Below are positions 5,443-13,661 of a DNA stretch of 24,000 bases, in pieces (the stretch's first letter is position 1; each line of letters starts with the position of its first letter). The notes under the pieces are model-generated. The model was not told where the DNA came from. It worked only from the letters and a program-made list of their open reading frames with translations, and made no database searches. The stretch is from Candidatus Woesebacteria bacterium (GTDB lineage Bacteria; Patescibacteriota; Microgenomatia; UBA8517): contig CP066693.1 of assembly GCA_016432525.1 (NCBI GenBank), positions 689,773 to 713,772 of the forward strand. Reading direction: 5' to 3'. The translations under genes were made by a program, and so were the position numbers.

Positions 5443-5683
5443 TCATTCTTGAATCAGCTTCTTAAACTCATTTCCCTTTTGTAAGATTTTATTTCTAATT
5501 CTCTGTCAACCGCCTGGTTTCTAAAATCAAATTTTCACTATAAACAATTTCGTAAGGACCTTTATTCCTAGTATATTTACTTCCTCCTTTATTGTGTCTC
5601 AATAATCTTTTTTCTAAATTGCAAGTTGAACCAATATAATGTTTTCCAGTAGTAAGACTTCGAAGAATATATACGTAATACAC
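5443..5683 (-). pseudogene. GIY-YIG nuclease family gene (UPF0213-like), apparently frameshifted twice
   Basis: VYYVYILRSLTTGKHYIGSTCNLEKRLLRHN is the GIY-YIG core. After ...IVYSENLILET the expected C-terminus is found in the other two frames (QAVDRELEIKSYK, then GNEFKKLIQE-stop). The track ORF's N-terminal extension overlaps tRNA-Gly. Confidence 0.6.
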
Positions 5684-5687
5684 CTTG

Positions 5688-5759
5688 AGCGGCGGACCGG
5701 GTTTGAACCGGCGACCTCTTCCTTGGCAAGGAAGCATTCTACCACTGAACTACCGCCGC
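5688..5759 (-). tRNA. tRNA-Gly (anticodon GCC)
   Basis: Acceptor GCGGCGG/CCGCCGC, anticodon loop TT-GCC-AA, T-arm GCCGG-TTCAAAC-CCGGT. Confidence 0.9.
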
Positions 5760-5876: not shown

Positions 5877-5940
5877 AAAATTCTGACTTTGGCAAGACGA
5901 GCTATGCTCATCTTGGCTCAATGCAATTATACCAAACTTG

Positions 5941-6012
5941 TGGACGCTGAGGGATTCGAACCCCCGACTTTTTCGATGTAAACGAAACACTCTACCGCTG
6001 AGTTAAGCGTCC
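5941..6012 (-). tRNA. tRNA-Val (anticodon UAC)
   Basis: Acceptor GGACGCT/AGCGTCC, anticodon loop TT-TAC-AT, T-arm with TTCGAAT loop. Confidence 0.9.
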
Positions 6013-6050
6013 AAAGCGACGCTTGGCTCCCTTCGGGTAGTAAGCGTCCT

Positions 6051-6148
6051 CTGTGCTCTACATATTATACCATTCGAACTTACTTTCAGTCTCAATGCGG
6101 AGTGGCGGCTTGAACGCCACCAAGCCGCCACGTTATTTCTACCACTCG
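6051..6148 (+). repeat. left junction: core + arm Y (98 bp), perfect inverted copy at 11749..11846
   Basis: 98/98 identity to the reverse complement of 11749..11846, checked base by base. Contains a minus-strand TGGTATAAT box (6064..6072) and an 11-bp-stem hairpin (6102..6131). Confidence 0.95.
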
Positions 6149-6510
6149 GCGCTCATCGCCTCGTGGGTAAGATTCTCTTTTGCGCGCGTACAGTCGCTTT
6201 GCGACTGATTTATAAATTTACCCCTTACAAGGAAAGTGCGGGGTTGCCTAAAGCAACTGCCTTGCAGAACAAGCGGCAAAGAAATGCCTCAAAGTTTTGC
6301 TTCGCAAAAGTACCAAGCTAACGCAAGGCACAGAAGTTCCCCGCCAGTTTGGCGGGGAAGAGGCTAAGTTCCTGCTTCCAGCAGGAAGCCGCTTTCATCC
6401 GCCTTCGGCGGTTGCGCTCCTGCGAGGAAATTGACTACGCAATTTAGTGCGGCTCGCGCCGCACTCAAACAGAACCACACCGTAAAACTAAACCCGTGCA
6501 GATGCCGTGC
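6149..6510. other. ORF-free GC-rich region with at least 7 perfect short stem-loops (candidate structured RNA or protein-binding/origin region)
   Basis: Hairpins at 6191..6207, 6243..6257, 6295..6309, 6337..6359 (9 bp), 6369..6387, 6399..6411 and 6446..6465 (8 bp). No ORF of 60 aa or more on any frame. Strand undetermined. Confidence 0.4.
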
Positions 6511-6512
6511 TT

Positions 6513-6541
6513 TTGCCTCAAGTTAATGATATAAATATATA
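6513..6541 (+). promoter_or_regulatory. candidate sigma70-type promoter TTGCCT-N17-TATATA for the Fic-ART operon
   Basis: Hexamers and spacing read directly. Located 38 nt upstream of the 47-aa ORF. Confidence 0.35.
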
Positions 6542-6578: not shown

Positions 6579-6722
6579 ATGCACGATATCCCTGAAAAAC
6601 AAGCAAAGAAAGATTTAGAATTGATGCTCCAAAATTTAAAAATTACTGAAGAGAAGATGCAAAGGTCGCTGCCTACAAACAAAGAGCAAAAGAAACGACC
6701 GATTATCCCAAAAACAAACTAA
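6579..6722 (+). CDS. possible 47-aa basic/charged ORF immediately upstream of the Fic-ART gene
   Basis: ATG..TAA with the stop 3 nt before the Fic-ART ATG (possible coupling). No SD. Lacks the FicA antitoxin motif (S/T)xxxE(G/N). Confidence 0.3.
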   Translation: MHDIPEKQAKKDLELMLQNLKITEEKMQRSLPTNKEQKKRPIIPKTN

Positions 6723-6725
6723 ACC

Positions 6726-9137
6726 ATGGAAGACAACATCGCAGGATCCGAGACACTTACAGCAGAGCGAATTTTGAACGATGAAGAAACAGAAAACAGG
6801 CGTACGCTCTTAACAATTATTTCCTCTCAAAGAGAAGCTATTACCTCCCGCCTTTCATCTTTTCAAGAACGAGTGGTACTATCCTTAAATGATGAAAAGG
6901 CTTTAAGACACGAGTGCCGAGAATTAGAGCAACAACTTGGGATTGAGACAGAGGAACAACGCATACTTGAAGCAAGTCTGTTTATAGACATGCCCTTTTT
7001 GGAAGTATCTGCTTTGAGGAAAGACAAACACCCAGAAGAGCTGTTTGGGATTGAAGCGTGGAAGGGCTGGTTGTCTGCCAGAATTACGGCACGACAAATG
7101 GACGAGCTTTCAGTTGAGGGAATTGTTGAGCTACATACAAAATTAGCAGAAGGGATGGATATTACGGGCGGACAACTTAGAAGTAAAAGTGCAATTGGAG
7201 CAGATTACACAAATACTGGTTCTCCTATTACTTTTACAAAGAGCCAAGCCACAGCAACTGAACAAAATCCACTTTTAGGCGTTCGCTATACCGATGAAGA
7301 AAAAAAAGAGGGTTTTATTGTATATCCCACAATTGATGACCCGAAAAGTTTTGAGAAGGTGATGAGTCAATTAACCTCACTTCAGCGAACAGGTTTACGG
7401 TATGGCGCAACAAATGAAAAACTTGTAAATGTGCTACTTCAAAGCACTATTGAGTGGCACAAGGAACAAAACAATAATTTAGCGGAGGGAGATTCAAATG
7501 CCCAAACTGAACTTGCCGCAGAGCTACAACGAAGAATAGTTTCCATACACGCATTTGATGATGGCAACGGCAGATTATCAAGGCTTCTTATGATTAGAGA
7601 GCTTGAAAAACACAATGAACCACCAACCATTTTAAGGCGTGGAGAAGATGATTTATTTTTTACTCCACAAGAATGGGTGCAGGAAGTGCGAGAAGGGCAA
7701 TCAAGGTACGAACAAATGCAAGAACGAATGACAGGTTCTCGGTACGCAAAAGCCGAGGACTTTTTAGTTGGCTTACAAAAACAAGCATATTTTGACACTG
7801 TGTACCAATCTGTTTATCCACCTCCCACTTCTGATGCACCCATGAGGCACACTGAATATCGAGCTTATCTAGAGCAACTTAACGAAATATATTCGCACTT
7901 TGCAGAATACACAGAAGGGAAAACTTGGTTACGTTGGAATAACACACAAGAAATACACATGGGAGGGCTTGTTTCTCCTGATTATTCTCGAGTATGGTGC
8001 GATACTCGACCAGAAGTGCAACAGAGGTCAAGAGAACGATATTTTGACCAAGAACTCAAAGTTTTTCGAGGTGGAGCTTGTGAAGGAATAACTGACACAA
8101 AACAACTTTTATCTGTTTTTACAGAGCCAACCGGTTTCTGCGCAGGTTACCACGCTCTTTTGGAAGAAGGAGTTTCTCCAATTAGTCTTAATTCGTTACC
8201 AATTGAGCGAATACAAAGTGAACTTAACGCGTACAATACAACAGTTCTTCGTGATACTGAGGTTAACCAAGGAGAGACTCTTGTTTCAGATGAGGTTTTA
8301 AATCAAGCAATGATAAGGGAGAGTCAGGATCAGCAAATTGCGAGAAGACTGAAATTCACATCAGAAGATGAAGAAAGAAGAGCTAGTGAATTTGCAAGTG
8401 GGGGACATATGCTTTACTTATTAAAAGTGCATACAGAGGGAAAAGCTCCTGGGTTGTGGCTTTCACCTGGAGTGAGCACCTCAATAGATGAAACCGAAGC
8501 TAGAAAATTCCTTACTACTCTAAAAGACGCCGGAGCTGAAAAACGAGTTGCATTGTTTATCTCAAGTAAATTGCCCAAACAAGGTATTTTTTACTCTCCA
8601 TCTAATCGGAGTCTGCCAATTACACGAGATTTTTACCCCAATATACCGTATCAAACAATAGTTGATGAGCAAGAAGTTGTGATAATGGGTGGAATTGACA
8701 GAAGTAGCTTACAAGCAATCGCCCATCGAAATGAAAATAATCATATAGTTTTAGTTGATTTTTCTACCAAAGAAAAAAGTATTTATAGATTTAATAAAAA
8801 AGGTGAATTAAGACTCCTTAAAAATAGAGCTTTAACAGAAGATGAGATTTCTGTTTTGAAAAAGACAAACAGACAATTGGGATCAGATAGCTATGATAAC
8901 AACAATAATTACGAAGATGAGGAGAACGAACCAAGTACGACTTATGACGATGAGCCGATTGACGATAATGAAGCGGAAGAGAAATTCCTACCGGCTTATT
9001 TGTCGGCCTCAACATTAGCAAAACTACATGACTCGCACTTATTTGATGAGGATGATGATGAAGACGAAAGTGTTTATTTAGGCTCTAGTACTCTTGCTAA
9101 TCTGAAGCAGAATCTGCAAATTGTTAATAAAGAATGA
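6726..9137 (+). CDS. two-domain Fic (AMPylase-type Fido) + R-S-E ADP-ribosyltransferase protein with acidic repeat tail (803 aa)
   Basis: Fic motif HAFDDGNGRLSR at codons 275-286 (7548..7583). Candidate auto-inhibitory TKLAEG at codons 138-143. ART triad: VFRGG (R448, 8067), GVSTSIDETEARKF (S584-T-S, 8475), DEQEVVIMGG (E648-x-E650, 8667), plus a KLPKQGIFYS strand resembling VIP2/C3-type toxins. Confidence 0.75.
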   Translation: MEDNIAGSETLTAERILNDEETENRRTLLTIISSQREAITSRLSSFQERVVLSLNDEKALRHECRELEQQLGIETEEQRILEASLFIDMPFLEVSALRKDKHPEELFGIEAWKGWLSARITARQMDELSVEGIVELHTKLAEGMDITGGQLRSKSAIGADYTNTGSPITFTKSQATATEQNPLLGVRYTDEEKKEGFIVYPTIDDPKSFEKVMSQLTSLQRTGLRYGATNEKLVNVLLQSTIEWHKEQNNNLAEGDSNAQTELAAELQRRIVSIHAFDDGNGRLSRLLMIRELEKHNEPPTILRRGEDDLFFTPQEWVQEVREGQSRYEQMQERMTGSRYAKAEDFLVGLQKQAYFDTVYQSVYPPPTSDAPMRHTEYRAYLEQLNEIYSHFAEYTEGKTWLRWNNTQEIHMGGLVSPDYSRVWCDTRPEVQQRSRERYFDQELKVFRGGACEGITDTKQLLSVFTEPTGFCAGYHALLEEGVSPISLNSLPIERIQSELNAYNTTVLRDTEVNQGETLVSDEVLNQAMIRESQDQQIARRLKFTSEDEERRASEFASGGHMLYLLKVHTEGKAPGLWLSPGVSTSIDETEARKFLTTLKDAGAEKRVALFISSKLPKQGIFYSPSNRSLPITRDFYPNIPYQTIVDEQEVVIMGGIDRSSLQAIAHRNENNHIVLVDFSTKEKSIYRFNKKGELRLLKNRALTEDEISVLKKTNRQLGSDSYDNNNNYEDEENEPSTTYDDEPIDDNEAEEKFLPAYLSASTLAKLHDSHLFDEDDDEDESVYLGSSTLANLKQNLQIVNKE

Positions 9138-9620: not shown

Positions 9621-10664
9621 CTAGTCGTCGTTCTCGTCAAACAGATGAGCATCGCGCAGCTTCTTCAGCGTGCTGGCTCCGAGGAGTGACTCGTCATCGT
9701 CTTCTTCCTTGAAAAGAAGCTCTCCCAGCTTACGCATAGGCGTGTAGCCATCAGGCTGCAAGTCCTCTGGTGAGAGGGCATACCAAGCACTTTCTTTCCC
9801 GTCAGAACGGAACGTCTTGTGCTCAGTGCCGAGACCAAAGGCTTTGTAAATCGCGGCCTTAATTGACTCAGGCAGGTTGACGTTGGAACGCCAATTCTTT
9901 TTTGCCCAAGCGAGAGCCTGCTCAGCCGTCCAGACGACGTCTTCTTCGTTCAGCCCACGATTGTAAATCGGGGTTGGACTTTGCATTCCTGCTGCACGTT
10001 CCCACGTAAAACGGGCGCCACCAGCATGGAAGCAAAAGCTAATGTTGAGACTCGTAGGAACTGAACCTTCTGCCCGATACCGCAGATTGCTGGCAATGAT
10101 TGCCGCACTCTCAGGCGAACGAGCAAAGTTATGCCCAGAGTATTCGTCCGTGCATAAAGCAGACCCGCGCGGGAAACTGTGCCAACGCTTGGCGTAGGCA
10201 ATAATCTCCACATGGGGATGCTGTTCCGCAATGCGAGTACCGATAGCCGCGAGCCAGTTCATGAACTCATGGTTCATGTCTGTACCCTCAACAACGACAC
10301 TAACAATGCGCCACTGGTCCCAATCTGTAAGGGACGCAAAAAACTCAACCACTTCGGCTGGTGTAAGCTTGACGTTTGTACTCATTTTGATTCTCACTTT
10401 CATGGATAGTCCCTTATCCAGAGCTTTCAGCTCAGGAACGGGAATCTTCAGGATAAAGCCACCATAGACCACCTCCAAAACTGCGAGGTGATTATCCCAA
10501 TCGTGGGGACGATTAGGTGCAAACTGCACTTGTACCTGATTAAGGTACTCACGCAAGATTTGCAAAATGGTGTCGTTCAGCTCACCAAAGTTCTTGGTAA
10601 GCCTTGCTGCCTGCTGAAGAATTTCAGCATTTTTTAGCAGCTGCCCCAAACTTTTCTTAGCCAT
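9621..10664 (-). CDS. hypothetical protein (347 aa) ending in the ESLLGASTLKKLRDAHLFDENDD motif
   Basis: Start chosen at ATG 10664, preceded by GGAGG (cagggaggaaataaaATG). The 94-codon upstream extension in the track has no signal. About 53% GC in spot counts. No domain recognised. Confidence 0.7.
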   Translation of the reverse strand: MAKKSLGQLLKNAEILQQAARLTKNFGELNDTILQILREYLNQVQVQFAPNRPHDWDNHLAVLEVVYGGFILKIPVPELKALDKGLSMKVRIKMSTNVKLTPAEVVEFFASLTDWDQWRIVSVVVEGTDMNHEFMNWLAAIGTRIAEQHPHVEIIAYAKRWHSFPRGSALCTDEYSGHNFARSPESAAIIASNLRYRAEGSVPTSLNISFCFHAGGARFTWERAAGMQSPTPIYNRGLNEEDVVWTAEQALAWAKKNWRSNVNLPESIKAAIYKAFGLGTEHKTFRSDGKESAWYALSPEDLQPDGYTPMRKLGELLFKEEDDDESLLGASTLKKLRDAHLFDENDD

Positions 10665-11661: not shown

Positions 11662-11748
11662 GAACTATAGGGAATATGACGAATAATTTTTGCTTTTTTC
11701 TTTTTAGGGAACGAGCCAACTTTTTTGACCCACTTCAGCGCTTCGCGT

Positions 11749-11934
11749 CGAGTGGTAGAAATAACGTGGCGGCTTGGTGGCGTTCAAGCCGCCACTCCGC
11801 ATTGAGACTGAAAGTAAGTTCGAATGGTATAATATGTAGAGCACAGCAAGGGAGCCGAGGGCTCATCGCAGGCTGCGATTGGCCGCGCAGCCAGCGAAAT
11901 ATGTGGATTGTTTGGGGAAAAGTGGATACGTTTA
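11749..11934 (-). repeat. internal inverted copy of the predicted excision junction (arm X + core + arm Y), 186 bp
   Basis: 11749..11846 is the exact reverse complement of 6051..6148 (98/98). 11841..11934 is the exact reverse complement of 13427..13520 (94/94). The two share the core gcacag at 11841..11846. Confidence 0.95.
11825..11833 (+). promoter_or_regulatory. TGGTATAAT extended -10 box within the inverted Y arm, oriented toward the recombinase gene
   Basis: Same box as 6064..6072 (there on the minus strand, facing tRNA-Val). Matches the host tRNA promoter style TATAATATG. Confidence 0.45.
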
Positions 11935-11996: not shown

Positions 11997-13661
11997 ATGA
12001 GCAAAACTTCAGTTGCTTCTGTAATAAAGCCTAAATACCTCGGTTATTGTCGCAAGTCCACAGACGAGAAAGAAAAACAGATTTTGTCTATAGATCAGCA
12101 GATTGATGAGTTAAAAACTTTCGCTTCAAGGGAAAATCTAGAAATAGTAGAGTTCTTTGTTGAAAAAAAGACTGCTAAAGAACCTGGTCGCTCAGTTTTT
12201 AACAATCTGCTGAAATTGGTAGAAAAAGGATTGGCAGATGGAATTGTTGCATGGCACCCTGATCGATTAGCCCGAAACAGTGTGGATGGTGGAAAGATTA
12301 TCTACCTTTTGGATACAGGCCAACTTCAAGATTTGAAGTTCCCAACTTTCTGGTTTCAAAACACACCTCAAGGCAAGTTCATGCTAAACATCGCGTTTGG
12401 CCAGAGCAAATATTATGTAGATAATCTTTCAGAAAATGTAAAGCGTGGATTGCATTTCAAAGCCAGACGTGGAGAGTGGCCTTCCTTTGCCCCCTTCGGC
12501 TATAAAAATGACCGTAATACAAGAAATATTGTTGTCGTGCCACAGCAAACAGAACTTGTTAAATATGTATTTACTCATTTCGCCTCAGGGGAACTATCTT
12601 CAACACGAGATGTCAGAAGTTACCTTTTTAAGAAGGGTGTAAAGCGAAAAAATGGAAGGCCACTTCACTACAATCAAATTCGTGCAATTCTTACTCGCAG
12701 TTTATATTACGGTGTCTTTATATATGGTGGTGAAACTTACGAAAGTAAACTTCCACCTTTAATATCCCAAGAGCTGTTTGACAAGGTTCAGGTGCGTCTA
12801 AAGAGACTTCAGCCAACTAATCTCAAAAAGCACGAATTTAATTTCACAGGGCTTATGAAATGCATAGAATGTGGAAGTTTTATTACGGCTGAGAGTCACA
12901 CCAAGCATTACAAATGTGCAAAACGAACCGCAGTTTATATTTATTATCGTTGTGTGAAGAAAAAAGGTGTTTGCTCTCAGCCTTATGTAACAGAAGCTGA
13001 AGTTGAAACTCAGTTGAGAGAAATTGTGAAAAAGTGCTCGCTTTCACCAATATGGGAAAAAGGTTTTATGGAGCTTCTTCTAAAAGATGAATTGGAAGCA
13101 AGAGCTCGCACTTCAGTTGAGCTTTGCTCAATCACAACTTCTCTTGAAGCAGTTGAAAAGAAACTTAGCCGTCTGTTAGAACTATACCTTGAAGAAAGTA
13201 TTGAAGCTGAGGATTATCAGTTAAAGAAAAATCAACTGCTTCACAAGAAACTTGATTTAAAATCCCAGATTGAGAGGGTAAAAGCTGACGGAGTAAGTTG
13301 GCTCGAACCTTTGAGGAACTTTATTATTGAGTCCGCAAATGCGGACAAAATCGCGCGCGCAAAAGAGAATCGCAGTGATTTGGCAATCACTGCCAAAAAA
13401 GTCGGCTCGAACTACTTGCTATTTGATAAACGTATCCACTTTTCCCCAAACAATCCACATATTTCGCTGGCTGCGCGGCCAATCGCAGCCTGCGATGAGC
13501 CCTCGGCTCCCTTGCTGTGCGGGAGACAGGACTTGAACCTGCACGGATTTCTCCATACGCACCTCAAGCGTACGTGTATACCAGTTTCACCACTCCCGCA
13601 AATCTCAAAGTGCCGAAGGAGAGATTTGAACTCTCACGCTCAAAAGAGCACACGCTCCTGA
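11997..13661 (+). CDS. large serine recombinase (integrase)
   Basis: N-terminal resolvase domain (YCRKS21TDEK, HPDRLARN), recombinase domain, zinc-ribbon cysteines (CIECGS...YYRCVKKKGVC) and a coiled-coil region. The last 47 codon positions (46 sense codons plus stop) read through the right junction into antisense tRNA-Leu genes. Confidence 0.9.
   Translation: MSKTSVASVIKPKYLGYCRKSTDEKEKQILSIDQQIDELKTFASRENLEIVEFFVEKKTAKEPGRSVFNNLLKLVEKGLADGIVAWHPDRLARNSVDGGKIIYLLDTGQLQDLKFPTFWFQNTPQGKFMLNIAFGQSKYYVDNLSENVKRGLHFKARRGEWPSFAPFGYKNDRNTRNIVVVPQQTELVKYVFTHFASGELSSTRDVRSYLFKKGVKRKNGRPLHYNQIRAILTRSLYYGVFIYGGETYESKLPPLISQELFDKVQVRLKRLQPTNLKKHEFNFTGLMKCIECGSFITAESHTKHYKCAKRTAVYIYYRCVKKKGVCSQPYVTEAEVETQLREIVKKCSLSPIWEKGFMELLLKDELEARARTSVELCSITTSLEAVEKKLSRLLELYLEESIEAEDYQLKKNQLLHKKLDLKSQIERVKADGVSWLEPLRNFIIESANADKIARAKENRSDLAITAKKVGSNYLLFDKRIHFSPNNPHISLAARPIAACDEPSAPLLCGRQDLNLHGFLHTHLKRTCIPVSPLPQISKCRRRDLNSHAQKSTRS
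13427..13520 (+). repeat. right junction: arm X + core (94 bp), perfect inverted copy at 11841..11934
   Basis: 94/94 identity, checked base by base. Overlaps recombinase codons 478-508. Confidence 0.95.
13518..13599 (-). tRNA. tRNA-Leu (anticodon GAG), type II; integration target
   Basis: Acceptor GCGGGAG/CTCCCGC, anticodon loop TT-GAG-GT, T-arm CAGG-TTCAAGT-CCTG, 82 nt. Confidence 0.9.

What the first reader, a model, noticed from the sequence alone, without database searches (positions are those of the whole stretch)
6726..9137. Single 803-aa protein combining a canonical Fic AMPylase motif with a VIP2/C3-like ADP-ribosyltransferase
Seen in translation: HAFDDGNGRLSR (codons 275-286) is a full HxFx(D/E)GNGRxxR Fic motif. 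About 135 residues upstream, TKLAEG fits the (S/T)xxxE(G/N) auto-inhibition helix of class II Fic proteins.

The C-terminal half carries an R-S-E ART signature in the right order and context:
- LKVFRGG (R448).
- PGVSTSIDETEARKF (STS followed by A..F).
- RVALFISSKLPKQGIFYS.
- DEQEVVIMGG (ExE followed by hydrophobics and G).

Spacing is longer than in the classical toxins I recall (R to STS 136 aa, STS to ExE 64 aa), implying insertions.

Two different nucleotide-transfer toxin chemistries in one polypeptide, on a mobile island in a tiny-genome bacterium, suggests an effector or an abortive-infection-type killer. No obvious immunity gene (no macro domain or ARH, by eye) is adjacent. The neighbours are unrecognisable.
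Basis: partly seen in the sequence, partly recalled or inferred. Interest (0 to 1): 0.8.

Follow-up and report, generated by a model that had tools for sequence, protein, structure and literature searches.

The report
Fused Fic and pertussis-like ART toxin
One 803-residue protein of a tiny-genome Woesebacteria bacterium joins a Fic (AMP-transferase type) domain to a divergent pertussis/cholera-type ADP-ribosyltransferase domain. This is a conserved, undescribed two-enzyme toxin architecture found in bacteria that live on or prey on other bacteria.

Summary

**Fic half.** It is a true Fic domain: Pfam gives 35.7 bits against a cutoff of 24, the motif is HAFDDGNGRLSR, and the AF2 model (pLDDT 87) matches AnkX and FICD.

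**C-terminal half (aa 397-720).** No Pfam model hits it, but it is a real R-S-E ART.
- Its family profile finds about 129 relatives, including a Pfam-verified Pertussis_S1 protein.
- hhalign against that family gives 92-96% probability (E 5e-7 to 7e-9), aligning R448, H569, S584-T-S and E650.
- 17 of the 18 best PDB profile hits are ARTs, and Foldseek finds EcPltA.
- The catalytic residues are nearly invariant family-wide.

- The ART is pertussis/cholera/Tre-like, not VIP2/C3-like, and carries a roughly 100-aa helical insert.
- TKLAEG sits in a Fic core helix and is not conserved, so it is not the inhibitory helix.
- A conserved, translationally coupled 47-aa upstream ORF is a candidate inhibitor.

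**Context.** The gene lies in a serine-recombinase island inside a tRNA cluster. Relatives occur in other CPR bacteria, in Bacteriovoracaceae, and as modules of giant proteins.

**Most likely reading.** A two-enzyme toxin or effector. I found no published description.

The parts
6579..6722 (+). 47-aa ORF (MHDIPEKQAKKDLELMLQNLK...) ending 3 nt before the toxin start. Candidate antitoxin, immunity protein or inhibitor.
   Evidence: Similar small ORFs (consensus xDIIEKQ..(D/E)L..(I/L)L.NL) lie immediately upstream and co-oriented in 5 distinct loci: window, L001/2, L003-5, L006 and L007. In L003, L006 and L007 they abut or overlap the toxin start. tblastn to L001 gives E = 1.2e-5. No Pfam, NCBIfam, PADLOC or PHROG hit. 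No (S/T)xxxE(G/N) motif.
6726..9137 (+). 803-aa Fic plus ART fusion protein gene.
6951..6983 (+). Helix aa 76-86 (EEQRILEASLF) with family-invariant E82-A83. It is roughly where a class II inhibitory helix would be, but the motif is non-canonical.
   Evidence: E82, A83, L85, I87 and D88 are invariant in alignment A1. AF2 predicts helix 76-86. The positional estimate comes from the FICD/FIC-1 alignments. Contact with the Fic arginine was not testable because no coordinates are available.
7020..7625 (+). Fic (Fido) core, aa 99-300, with a roughly 70-aa insertion (about aa 157-230) between the flap region and the helix that carries the motif.
   Evidence: Pfam PF02661 E = 1.6e-8. Family profile against FICD homologues E = 7e-16. 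Foldseek: AnkX 4e-5, 3cuc, FICD, SoFic, all with probability 1.0.
7137..7154 (+). TKLAEG (aa 138-143). A chance match to (S/T)xxxE(G/N), located in the Fic core 'lHxxL...GxxR' helix.
   Evidence: Aligned to FIC-1 'ILEMHRRVLGNADPVEAGRIR' and FICD '[21 protein letters not shown]'. Not conserved in A1.
7548..7583 (+). Fic signature HAFDDGNGRLSR (H275 to R286).
   Evidence: H275, N281, G282 and R283 are invariant in A1.
7626..7913 (+). Helical linker (aa 301-396) packing the two domains together.
   Evidence: AF2 pLDDT above 90 through the linker and pTM 0.85 for the whole chain.
7914..8885 (+). Divergent pertussis/cholera-type R-S-E ADP-ribosyltransferase domain (aa 397-720), including a C-terminal three-strand plus helix extension (aa 665-720).
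8061..8075 (+). VFRGG, the catalytic-Arg strand (R448).
   Evidence: R448 and G449 are invariant in 77 sequences. It aligns to 'VYRGT' of the Pertussis_S1-family proteins once the insert is removed.
8094..8405 (+). Helical insertion of about 100 aa between the Arg strand and the His/STS strand. It contains invariant N504.
   Evidence: AF2 helices 458-466, 475-481, 493-515, 522-541 and 546-557. Most distant relatives match the profile in two stretches that skip part of this region. The role of N504 is unknown.
8430..8432 (+). H569, the equivalent of pertussis toxin H35.
   Evidence: Aligned to H of 'VLEHLTGR' in pertussis toxin S1 and to H in the A5 family. It is H in 115 of 120 aligned relatives.
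8475..8483 (+). S584-T-S586 (STS) strand.
   Evidence: S584 is kept in 119 of 119 aligned relatives. It aligns to FVSTS of pertussis toxin S1 and TreX.
8667..8675 (+). E648-Q-E650 (ExE).
   Evidence: E650 is kept in 122 of 124 relatives. E648 is E in 90, Q in 25 and D in 5. It aligns to the catalytic Glu of pertussis toxin S1 and TreX.
8886..9134 (+). Disordered acidic tail (aa 721-803) with two copies of an amphipathic motif: LSASTLAKLHDSHLFDEDDD (nt 9000-9068) and LGSSTLANLKQNLQI (nt 9078-9122).
   Evidence: pLDDT below 50 with short helices. The motif is shared with the C-terminus of the 347-aa neighbour, with P0044, and more weakly with P0003.
9621..10664 (-). 347-aa neighbour ending in LLGASTLKKLRDAHLFDENDD (nt 9624-9686). 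Its N-terminal 93 aa form a conserved module on proteins with unrelated C-termini.
   Evidence: No Pfam, PADLOC or PHROG hit. Not found next to homologues of the toxin.
11997..13661 (+). Large serine recombinase of the island. The ORF reads on into the repeat and the antisense of tRNA-Leu.
   Evidence: Pfam Resolvase 2.5e-22, Recombinase 6.8e-13 and Zn_ribbon_recom 4.2e-8. PHROG integrase 3e-75.
6051..6159 (.). Left arm of inverted repeat I1 (partner 11738-11846, 96% complementary). It holds an outward TATAAT promoter-like site facing tRNA-Val and an inward terminator hairpin.
11738..11934 (.). Central composite site: the I1 right arm (11738-11846) joined through the core GCACAG to the I2 left arm (11841-11934). 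It lies just upstream of the recombinase gene.
13427..13520 (.). Right arm of inverted repeat I2 (100% complementary), abutting the 3' end of tRNA-Leu(gag).

Best explanation
The gene encodes a two-enzyme nucleotide-transfer toxin.

**Domain layout**
- The N-terminal Fic domain has the canonical HxFx(D/E)GNGRxxR motif. By default that predicts AMP transfer from ATP to a target hydroxyl, but the nucleotide is not established.
- A helical linker packs it rigidly against the C-terminal domain.
- The C-terminal domain is a divergent pertussis/cholera/Tre-type mono-ADP-ribosyltransferase. Its catalytic set is R448, H569, S584-T-S and E648-x-E650. The ExE form predicts arginine as the acceptor.
- A helical insert of about 100 aa between the Arg strand and the His/STS strand, and a C-terminal beta extension, are candidate target-recognition parts.

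**Proposed action**
- The protein is made from a two-gene operon together with a 47-aa helical protein. I propose this protein keeps the toxin inactive in the producer, as a FicA/VbhA-like or TriX-like helix blocking an active site.
- The toxin most likely acts in another cell: the bacterial host of this epibiont, or a competitor.
- The acidic C-terminal tail motif, shared with a neighbouring island protein, would then be a common recognition or translocation signal.

**Shown here:** domain identities, conservation of the catalytic residues, the conserved fusion, the conserved upstream ORF, and the island context.

**Inferred:** both activities, the arginine specificity, the inhibitor role, the export route and the targets.
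For: **Fic domain**
- Pfam above cutoff; family profile against FICD 7e-16.
- AF2 model pLDDT 87.1, pTM 0.85.
- Foldseek matches AnkX, FICD, 3cuc and SoFic with probability 1.0.

**ART domain**
- The profile of 14 C-terminal domains finds 129 proteins among 1.84e9, including P0122 (E = 1.5e-4). P0122 is Pertussis_S1 (7.6e-11) and Scabin-like (31 bits against a cutoff of 27).
- hhalign of 34 diverse domains (P0122 excluded) against the P0122 family gives 92.3% probability, E = 5.5e-7. With the insert cut out it gives 95.8%, E = 7.2e-9, and all four catalytic positions align.
- 17 of the 18 best PDB profile hits are R-S-E ARTs, aligned on H, STS and E.
- Foldseek finds EcPltA with probability 0.99.
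- Scabin-like is the only Pfam family hit weakly by more than one member.
- The catalytic residues are nearly invariant.

**Toxin or effector reading**
- The same Fic plus ART module sits at the C-terminal end of giant (1.5 to over 7 kaa) proteins of Gammaproteobacteria MAGs, alongside other enzyme modules.
- It also occurs in Bacteriovoracaceae and Halobacteriovorax genomes.
- Many distant members begin with hydrophobic, signal-peptide-like N-termini. This was judged by eye.

**Upstream partner**
-.
- Helix-in-active-site immunity is established for Tre1/Tri1 and TreX/TriX (PMC11606950) and for FicA/VbhA (PMC5033356).

**Shared C-terminal signal**
- The analogy is the BID domain of VbhT, shared with the plasmid's relaxase (PMC5675462).
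Against: - No curated ART model reaches threshold on this protein.
- The window protein has no signal peptide, and no secretion system is encoded in the window.
- The 47-aa ORF has no known inhibitory motif and is missing upstream of at least two more distant relatives (L008, L043).
- The tail motif occurs in only a few family members.
- An upstream small gene is the layout of an intracellular toxin-antitoxin pair. Immunity genes to secreted toxins are more often downstream (general knowledge).
- No activity has been measured.
Confidence: 0.55

Rival explanations
1. An intracellular toxin-antitoxin or abortive-infection module. orf47 is the antitoxin of a FicTA-like pair. The fusion protein stays in the producer, stabilises the recombinase island, or kills the cell on phage attack by modifying its own essential proteins with two chemistries.
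For: The antitoxin-first, translationally coupled layout. No signal peptide on the protein. Location on an integrative island, and next to transposase, primase-helicase and phage-type genes in relatives. The Fic part resembles PADLOC Fic defence candidates PDC-S04 (7.5e-8) and SoFic (1.7e-6).
Against: The PADLOC hits cover only the generic Fic motif region. The module occurs at the end of giant multi-enzyme proteins and in relatives that look signal-peptide-bearing, which is typical of exported toxins. The disordered tail motif shared with a second island protein has no role in a simple TA pair.
Confidence: 0.25
2. Only one domain is the effector and the other is regulatory or a scaffold. For example, the Fic domain could auto-modify or gate the ART, or the ART-like domain could merely dock the target for the Fic enzyme.
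For: The two domains are predicted to pack into one rigid body (pTM 0.85), and the fusion is conserved over very divergent sequences. In 12 of about 70 Fic-bearing relatives the first arginine of GNGR is replaced (T/A/G/S) while the ART residues stay intact. Loss of that arginine is taken to abolish adenylylation (PMC5033356).
Against: In the window protein and 58 relatives both active sites are fully canonical. That level of conservation argues for catalysis by both domains in this lineage.
Confidence: 0.13
3. The C-terminal half is not an ADP-ribosyltransferase. The R, STS and ExE strings are coincidental within some other alpha/beta fold.
For: No Pfam or NCBIfam ART hit. Individual PDB profile E-values are 0.07-0.9. 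The spacing is unusual (136 aa from R to STS).
Against: hhalign E = 5.5e-7 to 7.2e-9 against a Pfam-verified Pertussis_S1 family, with the catalytic positions aligned. 17 of 18 top PDB hits are ARTs. Foldseek finds EcPltA. H, S and E are near-invariant across about 120 relatives.
Confidence: 0.05

Closest known systems
Pertussis toxin S1, EcPltA, cholera toxin A1 and Scabin (the CT/PT group of R-S-E mono-ADP-ribosyltransferases; Pfam PF02917, PF22596, PF01375)
   Same: An Arg strand ((V/I)(Y/F)RG). A His 15-17 residues before the STS strand. A catalytic Glu followed by hydrophobic residues and Gly. Profile-profile homology and a Foldseek match to EcPltA.
   Different: A helical insertion of about 100 aa between Arg and His. 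An extra N-terminal 'GGL(I/V)S..YI..WGDTRP' segment and a C-terminal beta extension. ExE rather than pertussis toxin's QxE. No B subunits. Fused behind a Fic domain. Below threshold for every Pfam ART model.
Tre1 and TreX, type VI-delivered interbacterial R-S-ExE ARTs that ADP-ribosylate FtsZ arginines (PMC11606950)
   Same: TreX was the best PDB profile hit (8s2m, E = 0.07), aligned on H, STS and ExE. ExE is typical of arginine-modifying toxins. They are neutralised by an immunity-protein helix inserted into the active site. TreX has a functional C-terminal extension.
   Different: No Rhs or T6SS context here. No homologue of Tri1 (an ARH) or TriX nearby. The target is unknown. Similarity is only sub-significant at the single-sequence level.
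VbhT/VbhA and FicTA modules (class I Fic toxins with a small upstream antitoxin; VbhT carries a C-terminal BID secretion signal) (PMC5675462, PMC5033356)
   Same: A small upstream gene followed by a Fic toxin with a C-terminal extension, carried on a mobile element. The C-terminal signal is shared with another protein of the same element.
   Different: The upstream 47-aa protein lacks the [S/T]xxxE[G/N] motif. The C-terminal extension here is a second enzyme plus an acidic tail, not a BID domain. The Fic domain is closer in sequence and fold to the FICD, 3cuc and AnkX type than to FicT.
FICD/HYPE, BT_2513 (3cuc) and AnkX Fic domains
   Same: These are the best sequence and fold matches for aa 99-310. 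The core 'lHxxL...GxxR' helix, the flap and the motif loop are all present.
   Different: No TPR or ankyrin parts. A roughly 70-aa insertion in the Fic core. The canonical TxxxEG inhibitory motif is replaced by an invariant '(Q/D)RxxEA' helix of unknown function.
   Same: The R-S-E triad with STS and ExE strings.
   Different: No sequence, profile or fold link was found. The conserved His before STS and all homology links point to the CT/PT group instead.

Membership tests
Fic/Fido (PF02661) | Score above the Pfam gathering threshold | tested here: met
   35.7 bits against a cutoff of 24, E = 1.6e-8, aa 242-291.
Fic/Fido (PF02661) | Signature HxFx(D/E)GNGRxxR | tested here: met
   HAFDDGNGRLSR, aa 275-286. 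H, N, G and R are invariant in the family.
Fic/Fido (PF02661) | The motif lies within a Fido fold | tested here: met
   AF2 pLDDT above 90 across aa 50-330. Foldseek matches AnkX, 3cuc, FICD and SoFic at E = 4e-5 to 1e-3, probability 1.0.
Fic/Fido (PF02661) | AMP (or other NMP or phospho-group) transfer to a target | not testable with these tools
   Needs an enzyme assay. AnkX, the top fold match, uses CDP-choline, so the donor cannot be read from the fold.
Class II auto-inhibited Fic | [S/T]xxxE[G/N] helix N-terminal to the core, with its Glu pairing with the last Arg of the motif (PMC5033356) | tested here: not met
   TKLAEG fits the regular expression but aligns to the core helix of FICD/FIC-1 and is not conserved. 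The helix at the expected place (aa 76-86) has invariant E82-A83 preceded by Q/D-R, which is non-canonical. The Glu-Arg contact could not be measured.
Class I Fic (FicTA/VbhTA) | A small, separately encoded protein immediately upstream | tested here: met
   47-aa ORF ending 3 nt upstream, conserved in 5 loci.
Class I Fic (FicTA/VbhTA) | The antitoxin carries [S/T]xxxE[G/N] | tested here: not met
   None of the five small ORFs has it. The only conserved acidic residue is E/D at position 5-6, in 'DIIEKQ'.
R-S-E ADP-ribosyltransferases | Arg on strand 1, an S-T-S strand and a catalytic Glu (ExE/QxE), in that order and conserved | tested here: met
   R448, S584-T-S586 and E648-Q-E650. All are invariant in the close family. 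S584 is kept in 119/119 and E650 in 122/124 of the wide family.
R-S-E ADP-ribosyltransferases | Detectable homology to a curated ART family | tested here: met
   hhalign against the Pfam Pertussis_S1-positive family: 92.3% / 5.5e-7 and 95.8% / 7.2e-9. The HMMER link to P0122 has E = 1.5e-4 in 1.84e9 proteins.
R-S-E ADP-ribosyltransferases | Reaches the gathering score of a Pfam or NCBIfam ART model | tested here: not met
   No ART family at E <= 10 on aa 411-710 or on the full protein. Scabin-like appears only weakly, in 5 of 34 relatives.
R-S-E ADP-ribosyltransferases | ART split-sheet fold with an NAD cleft | tested here: inconclusive
CT/PT subgroup of ARTs | A conserved His about 15-17 residues before STS (pertussis toxin H35) | tested here: met
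   H569 aligns to pertussis toxin H35 and to the His of the A5 family. It is H in 115/120 relatives.
VIP2/C3-like (PF03496 ADPrib_exo_Tox) | Sequence or profile match to the family | tested here: not met
   No hit. No C3, VIP2 or iota chain among the PDB profile hits.
Large-serine-recombinase integrative element | Resolvase + Recombinase + Zn_ribbon_recom protein | tested here: met
   PHROG integrase 3e-75.
Large-serine-recombinase integrative element | attL/attR junctions with a common core at the island ends | tested here: inconclusive
   Three sites share the core GCACAG. The middle one is a left-of-site-3 plus right-of-site-1 hybrid. It is inverted relative to the other two, which a single integration does not explain.

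The most novel reading that the evidence does not exclude
The Fic plus ART fusion is a dedicated host-manipulation weapon of bacteria that live on other bacteria (CPR epibionts and Bacteriovoracaceae predators). The two nucleotide-transfer domains would work as a coupled unit on one target or pathway. The toxin would be held in check by a new kind of 40-50-aa trans-inhibitor lacking the classical Fic inhibitory motif. It would be exported through a new C-terminal acidic 'STLxKLxDxHLFDE' signal shared by co-encoded island effectors. If so, this would give the first tractable effector-plus-signal pair for CPR-host interaction.
Probability: 0.15. Interest if true: 0.85.

Novelty: new variant of a known kind. 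Interest (0 to 1): 0.6.

Why it matters
Both chemistries are classic, but a conserved single-chain combination of them is absent from the literature I could search, and public annotation calls the protein only 'Fic family protein'.

The ART half belongs to a family of more than 100 sequence clusters that no Pfam model detects. ART toxins of this type are therefore being missed in CPR and predatory bacteria.

Almost nothing is known about effectors of ultra-small epibiotic bacteria. A toxin with two mutable active sites, a candidate inhibitor gene and a candidate targeting tail gives directly testable hypotheses about how these organisms act on their hosts.

Tried and rejected
- A single-sequence AF2 run was useless (pLDDT 34). 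It was replaced by a 77-sequence alignment.
- Pfam on the C-terminal half alone found nothing.
- The 14-sequence profile against PDB found nothing significant. The wider 34-sequence profile was needed.
- The BFVD search found only Fic proteins.
- TKLAEG as the inhibitory helix was rejected.
- VIP2/C3 kinship was rejected.
- The 64-, 167- and 347-aa neighbours were tested as conserved partners or immunity proteins. They have no family hits and do not occur next to homologues.
- No macro or ARH domain was recorded next to relatives.
The scan with the full alignment returned mostly Fic-only relatives.
- Rfam found nothing credible in the structured 6.0-6.6 kb spacer.
- Literature searches for a Fic-ART fusion returned nothing relevant.
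- A simple one-step integration model for the island was considered. It does not fit the inverted middle site.
Full report
**1. Observation**

The ORF 6726-9137 (+) is real and intact: 803 aa with an ATG start.
- HAFDDGNGRLSR at aa 275-286
- TKLAEG at aa 138-143
- VFRGG with R448
- STS at aa 584-586
- EQE at aa 648-650

An identical protein is on record as 'Fic family protein [Candidatus Woesebacteria bacterium]' on a 916,571-bp contig. That fits a tiny-genome CPR/Patescibacteria organism. Fourteen full-length relatives (25-41% identity) align end to end.

**2. Fic half**

Sequence and fold evidence agree:
- Pfam Fic scores 35.7 bits against a cutoff of 24, E = 1.6e-8.
- The family profile hits FICD and its homologues at 7e-16 to 2e-14.
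- An AF2 model built on a 77-sequence alignment has mean pLDDT 87.1 and pTM 0.85. It is confident from aa 18 to 720.
- Foldseek against PDB returns AnkX, BT_2513 (3cuc), FICD, SoFic and AvrB, all with probability 1.0.

So the motif lies in a genuine Fido fold.

In the HMMER alignments, aa 102-161 pair with FIC-1 'NEVIGMDAALRFLN...ILEMHRRVLGNADPVEAGRIRTTQV' and the matching FICD segment. That is the core 'lHxxL...GxxR' helix plus flap. T138 and E142 both vary freely among homologues.

Counting back from that alignment, the expected place for a class II inhibitory helix is about aa 75-85. AF2 predicts a helix at aa 76-86 there, and E82-A83 are invariant in the close family. The sequence context '(S/T)xx(Q/D)RxxEA' does not match [S/T]xxxE[G/N] as defined in PMC5033356. 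I could not measure a Glu-Arg contact because model coordinates are not exposed. The regulatory class is therefore undetermined.

The Fic core also carries an insertion of about 70 aa (roughly aa 157-230). AnkX, a phosphocholine transferase, is the best fold match. AMP transfer is therefore the default reading, not a proven one.

**3. C-terminal half**

No curated model sees this region. Pfam and NCBIfam find nothing on the full protein or on aa 411-710. A 14-sequence profile against PDB sequences also found nothing.

Six independent lines nevertheless identify it as an R-S-E ART of the pertussis/cholera group.

a. *Transitive sequence link.* The 14-sequence domain profile, searched against 1.84 billion representatives, finds 129 proteins at E <= 1e-3. 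One of them, P0122 (E = 1.5e-4), is a bona fide Pertussis_S1 protein (7.6e-11) and Scabin-like protein (31 bits against a cutoff of 27).

b. *Profile-profile homology.* I aligned 34 diverse domains, excluding P0122, and compared them with the six-member P0122 family, all of which are Pfam Pertussis_S1. hhalign gives 92.3% probability, E = 5.5e-7. It aligns H569, S584-T-S and E650.

c. *Insert test.* When the helical insert (aa 471-559) is removed in silico, the alignment extends to the Arg strand (KVFRGG against FVYRGT). It then reaches 95.8% probability and E = 7.2e-9 over 144 columns.

d. *PDB profile hits.* The same 34-sequence profile against PDB gives only sub-significant E-values (0.07-0.9). 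However, 17 of the 18 listed chains are ARTs: TreX, pertussis toxin S1, an 'ADP-ribosyltransferase' chain (5zj4), cholera toxin A and mosquitocidal toxin. They are aligned on the catalytic His, STS and Glu.

e. *Fold.* Foldseek with the full-length model lists EcPltA (4z9d) at probability 0.99, E = 0.03.

f. *Recurrent weak Pfam hit.* Scabin-like is the only Pfam family hit, weakly, by more than one of the 34 members: 5 members, best E = 2.5e-4.

Conservation across about 120-130 aligned relatives:

| Position | Conservation |
|---|---|
| H569 | H in 115 of 120 |
| S584 | S in 119 of 119 |
| E650 | E in 122 of 124 |
| E648 | E in 90, Q in 25, D in 5 |
| R448 | R in 63 of 65 where aligned |

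The conserved His 15 residues before STS corresponds to pertussis toxin H35. Together with all the homology links, it places the domain with the pertussis/cholera/Scabin/Tre toxins, not with VIP2/C3.

This insertion carries an invariant Asn (N504) of unknown role. ExE is the form typical of arginine-modifying toxins (PMC11606950).

**4. The fusion is conserved**

Most of the 129 relatives are 600-850-aa proteins with a Fic motif 130-200 residues upstream of the ART domain. In my alignment of relatives that carry the full domain:
- 58 have a strict Fic motif.
- 12 have the first Arg of GNGR replaced, while their ART residues remain intact.

Some relatives are stand-alone ART-like proteins of 200-360 aa with hydrophobic N-termini that look like signal peptides. 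This was judged by eye.

Others place the module at the C-terminal end of giant proteins of 1.5 to over 7 kaa. One of these also carries adenosine deaminase and PGDYG domains.

In species-representative genomes the distribution is as follows:
- Full-length relatives: Saccharibacteria, WWE3 and Levybacteria.
- The C-terminal domain alone is also detected in Bacteriovoracaceae and Halobacteriovorax loci, and in giant ORFs of Gammaproteobacteria MAGs.

These organisms live on or prey on other cells. Toxin modules at the ends of giant proteins are typical of exported toxins.

**5. Neighbours**

The 64-, 167- and 347-aa neighbours have no family hits and are not found beside homologues.

The 47-aa ORF at 6579-6722 is different. 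It ends 3 nt before the toxin start. Similar ORFs occupy the same position in five distinct loci, with consensus xDIIEKQ..(D/E)L..(I/L)L.NL. In three of those loci the ORF abuts or overlaps the toxin start codon. tblastn to L001 gives E = 1.2e-5.

This is the layout of class I Fic toxin-antitoxin pairs (PMC5033356). However, the peptide lacks the [S/T]xxxE[G/N] motif. Immunity by a helix inserted into the ART active site is established for Tre1/Tri1 and TreX/TriX (PMC11606950). I therefore propose orf47 as an inhibitor of one of the two sites. This is inference only.

The disordered acidic tail of the toxin (aa 721-803) holds two copies of a motif, LSASTLAKLHDSHLFDEDDD and LGSSTLANLKQNLQI. The motif recurs at the extreme C-terminus of the 347-aa neighbour (LLGASTLKKLRDAHLFDENDD) and of relative P0044.

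A C-terminal signal shared between a Fic toxin and another protein of the same mobile element has a precedent in the BID domain of VbhT (PMC5675462). CPR bacteria are reported to carry type IV secretion systems (PMC12102498, PMC10633639). None is encoded in this window.

**6. Island**

The gene lies in a segment richer in G+C (0.42-0.47 against 0.33-0.40 in the flanks). The segment sits between tRNA-Val (5940-6012) and tRNA-Leu(gag) (13517-13599). Housekeeping genes flank it: CTP synthase, a GTPase, DsbA/DsbB, an aminoacyl-tRNA-synthetase-like protein with an HGTP_anticodon domain, and a Y-family polymerase.

The island encodes a large serine recombinase and two pairs of inverted repeats: 109 nt at 96% and 94 nt at 100% complementarity.

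Three sites share the core GCACAG. The middle site (11738-11934) equals the left half of the tRNA-Val-side site joined to the right half of the tRNA-Leu-side site. That is the relationship expected among attP, attL and attR. However, the middle site is inverted relative to the other two, so a single integration does not explain the arrangement.

The 109-nt repeat holds an outward TATAAT promoter-like site. One copy faces tRNA-Val-Phe-Gly and the other faces the recombinase gene. It also holds an inward terminator-like hairpin.

**7. Mechanism and verdict**

The best-supported reading is a two-enzyme toxin or effector: Fic plus a pertussis-type, probably arginine-specific ART. It would be held inactive by the small upstream protein and most likely act in another bacterial cell.

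The main rival is an intracellular toxin-antitoxin or abortive-infection module of the island. A further rival is that one domain is regulatory.

- The two domain identities are well supported (about 0.9).
- The activities, targets, inhibitor role and export are inferred.
- I found no paper describing a Fic-ART fusion.

I rate it a new variant of known kinds: an unmodelled ART family and a new conserved architecture.

Noticed in passing
window 6013-6159, 11738-11934, 13427-13520: Three recombination-type sites share the core GCACAG. The middle site is a hybrid of the other two, as attP is to attL and attR, but it is inverted. As a result both the cargo (6.05-11.85 kb) and the recombinase gene (11.84-13.52 kb) are bracketed by inverted repeats. 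Possible explanations are two invertible segments or a rearranged integration. The implied empty site would be an unbroken tRNA Leu-Leu-Val-Phe-Gly operon.
   Followed up: partly
window 6051-6159 and 11738-11846: Each arm of the 109-nt inverted repeat carries an outward-facing TATAAT promoter-like site. One copy reads into tRNA-Val-Phe-Gly and the other into the recombinase gene. Each arm also carries an inward-facing GC-rich terminator-like hairpin. The element may supply a promoter for the tRNAs it cut off.
   Followed up: partly
window 6160-6520: A non-coding, GC-rich stretch upstream of the orf47-toxin operon folds far better than shuffled controls: -135 kcal/mol, z = -4.1, with 0 of 100 shuffles as good. 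It has several perfect hairpins and no credible Rfam match.
   Followed up: partly
window 9621-10664 (-): The first 93 residues of the 347-aa neighbour are 60-84% identical to the N-termini of nine proteins whose remaining sequence is unrelated. A shared N-terminal module on variable C-termini is a polymorphic-effector-like design. It matches no known family.
   Followed up: partly
window 9000-9122 (+) and 9624-9686 (-): An acidic stretch followed by '(G/S)(A/S)STL(A/K)(K/N)L.D.HLFDE(D/N)DD' is shared by the C-termini of two convergent island genes and by relative P0044. Function unknown; it may be a common recognition or secretion signal.
   Followed up: partly
window 11997-13661 (+): The serine recombinase ORF continues past its recognisable domains (PHROG match ends near aa 431). 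It runs through the 94-nt repeat and the antisense of both tRNA-Leu genes, so its last roughly 75 codons are probably read-through and not a real C-terminus.
   Followed up: no
P0023, P0025, P0029, P0032, P0034, P0035, P0041, P0042, P0043, P0048, P0051, P0055: Twelve relatives lack a canonical Fic signature; eleven have lost the first arginine of GNGR (replaced by T/A/G/S) and P0048 has FSGR in place of GNGR, yet all keep a complete ART catalytic set where that region is present. In part of the family the Fic domain may have become non-adenylylating or purely structural.
   Followed up: partly
P0049, P0056, P0057, P0064, P0088, P0090; loci L009-L012, L046, L047: The Fic plus ART module occurs near the C-terminus of giant proteins (1.5 to over 7 kaa). 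Examples are the giant ORFs in loci L009-L012 from Gammaproteobacteria MAGs and P0090, which also carries adenosine deaminase and PGDYG domains (its organism is not on record).
   Followed up: partly
window 8235-8237 (N504): An Asn inside the helical insertion of the ART domain ('YN' motif) is invariant in 77 sequences. It has no counterpart that I could assign in known ART toxins.
   Followed up: no
window 5495-5737 (-): A small ORF whose product reads '...YYVYILRS..GKHYIGST.NLEKRL..HN.G', which by eye looks like a GIY-YIG-type nuclease domain. It lies directly next to, and partly overlaps, tRNA-Gly(gcc). Not tested with any tool.
   Followed up: no
L003 4785-5843 (-): In the locus of relative P0012, a second, stand-alone 352-aa Fic protein is encoded two genes upstream of the Fic-ART gene, next to a DnaB helicase and a radical-SAM gene.
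   Followed up: no
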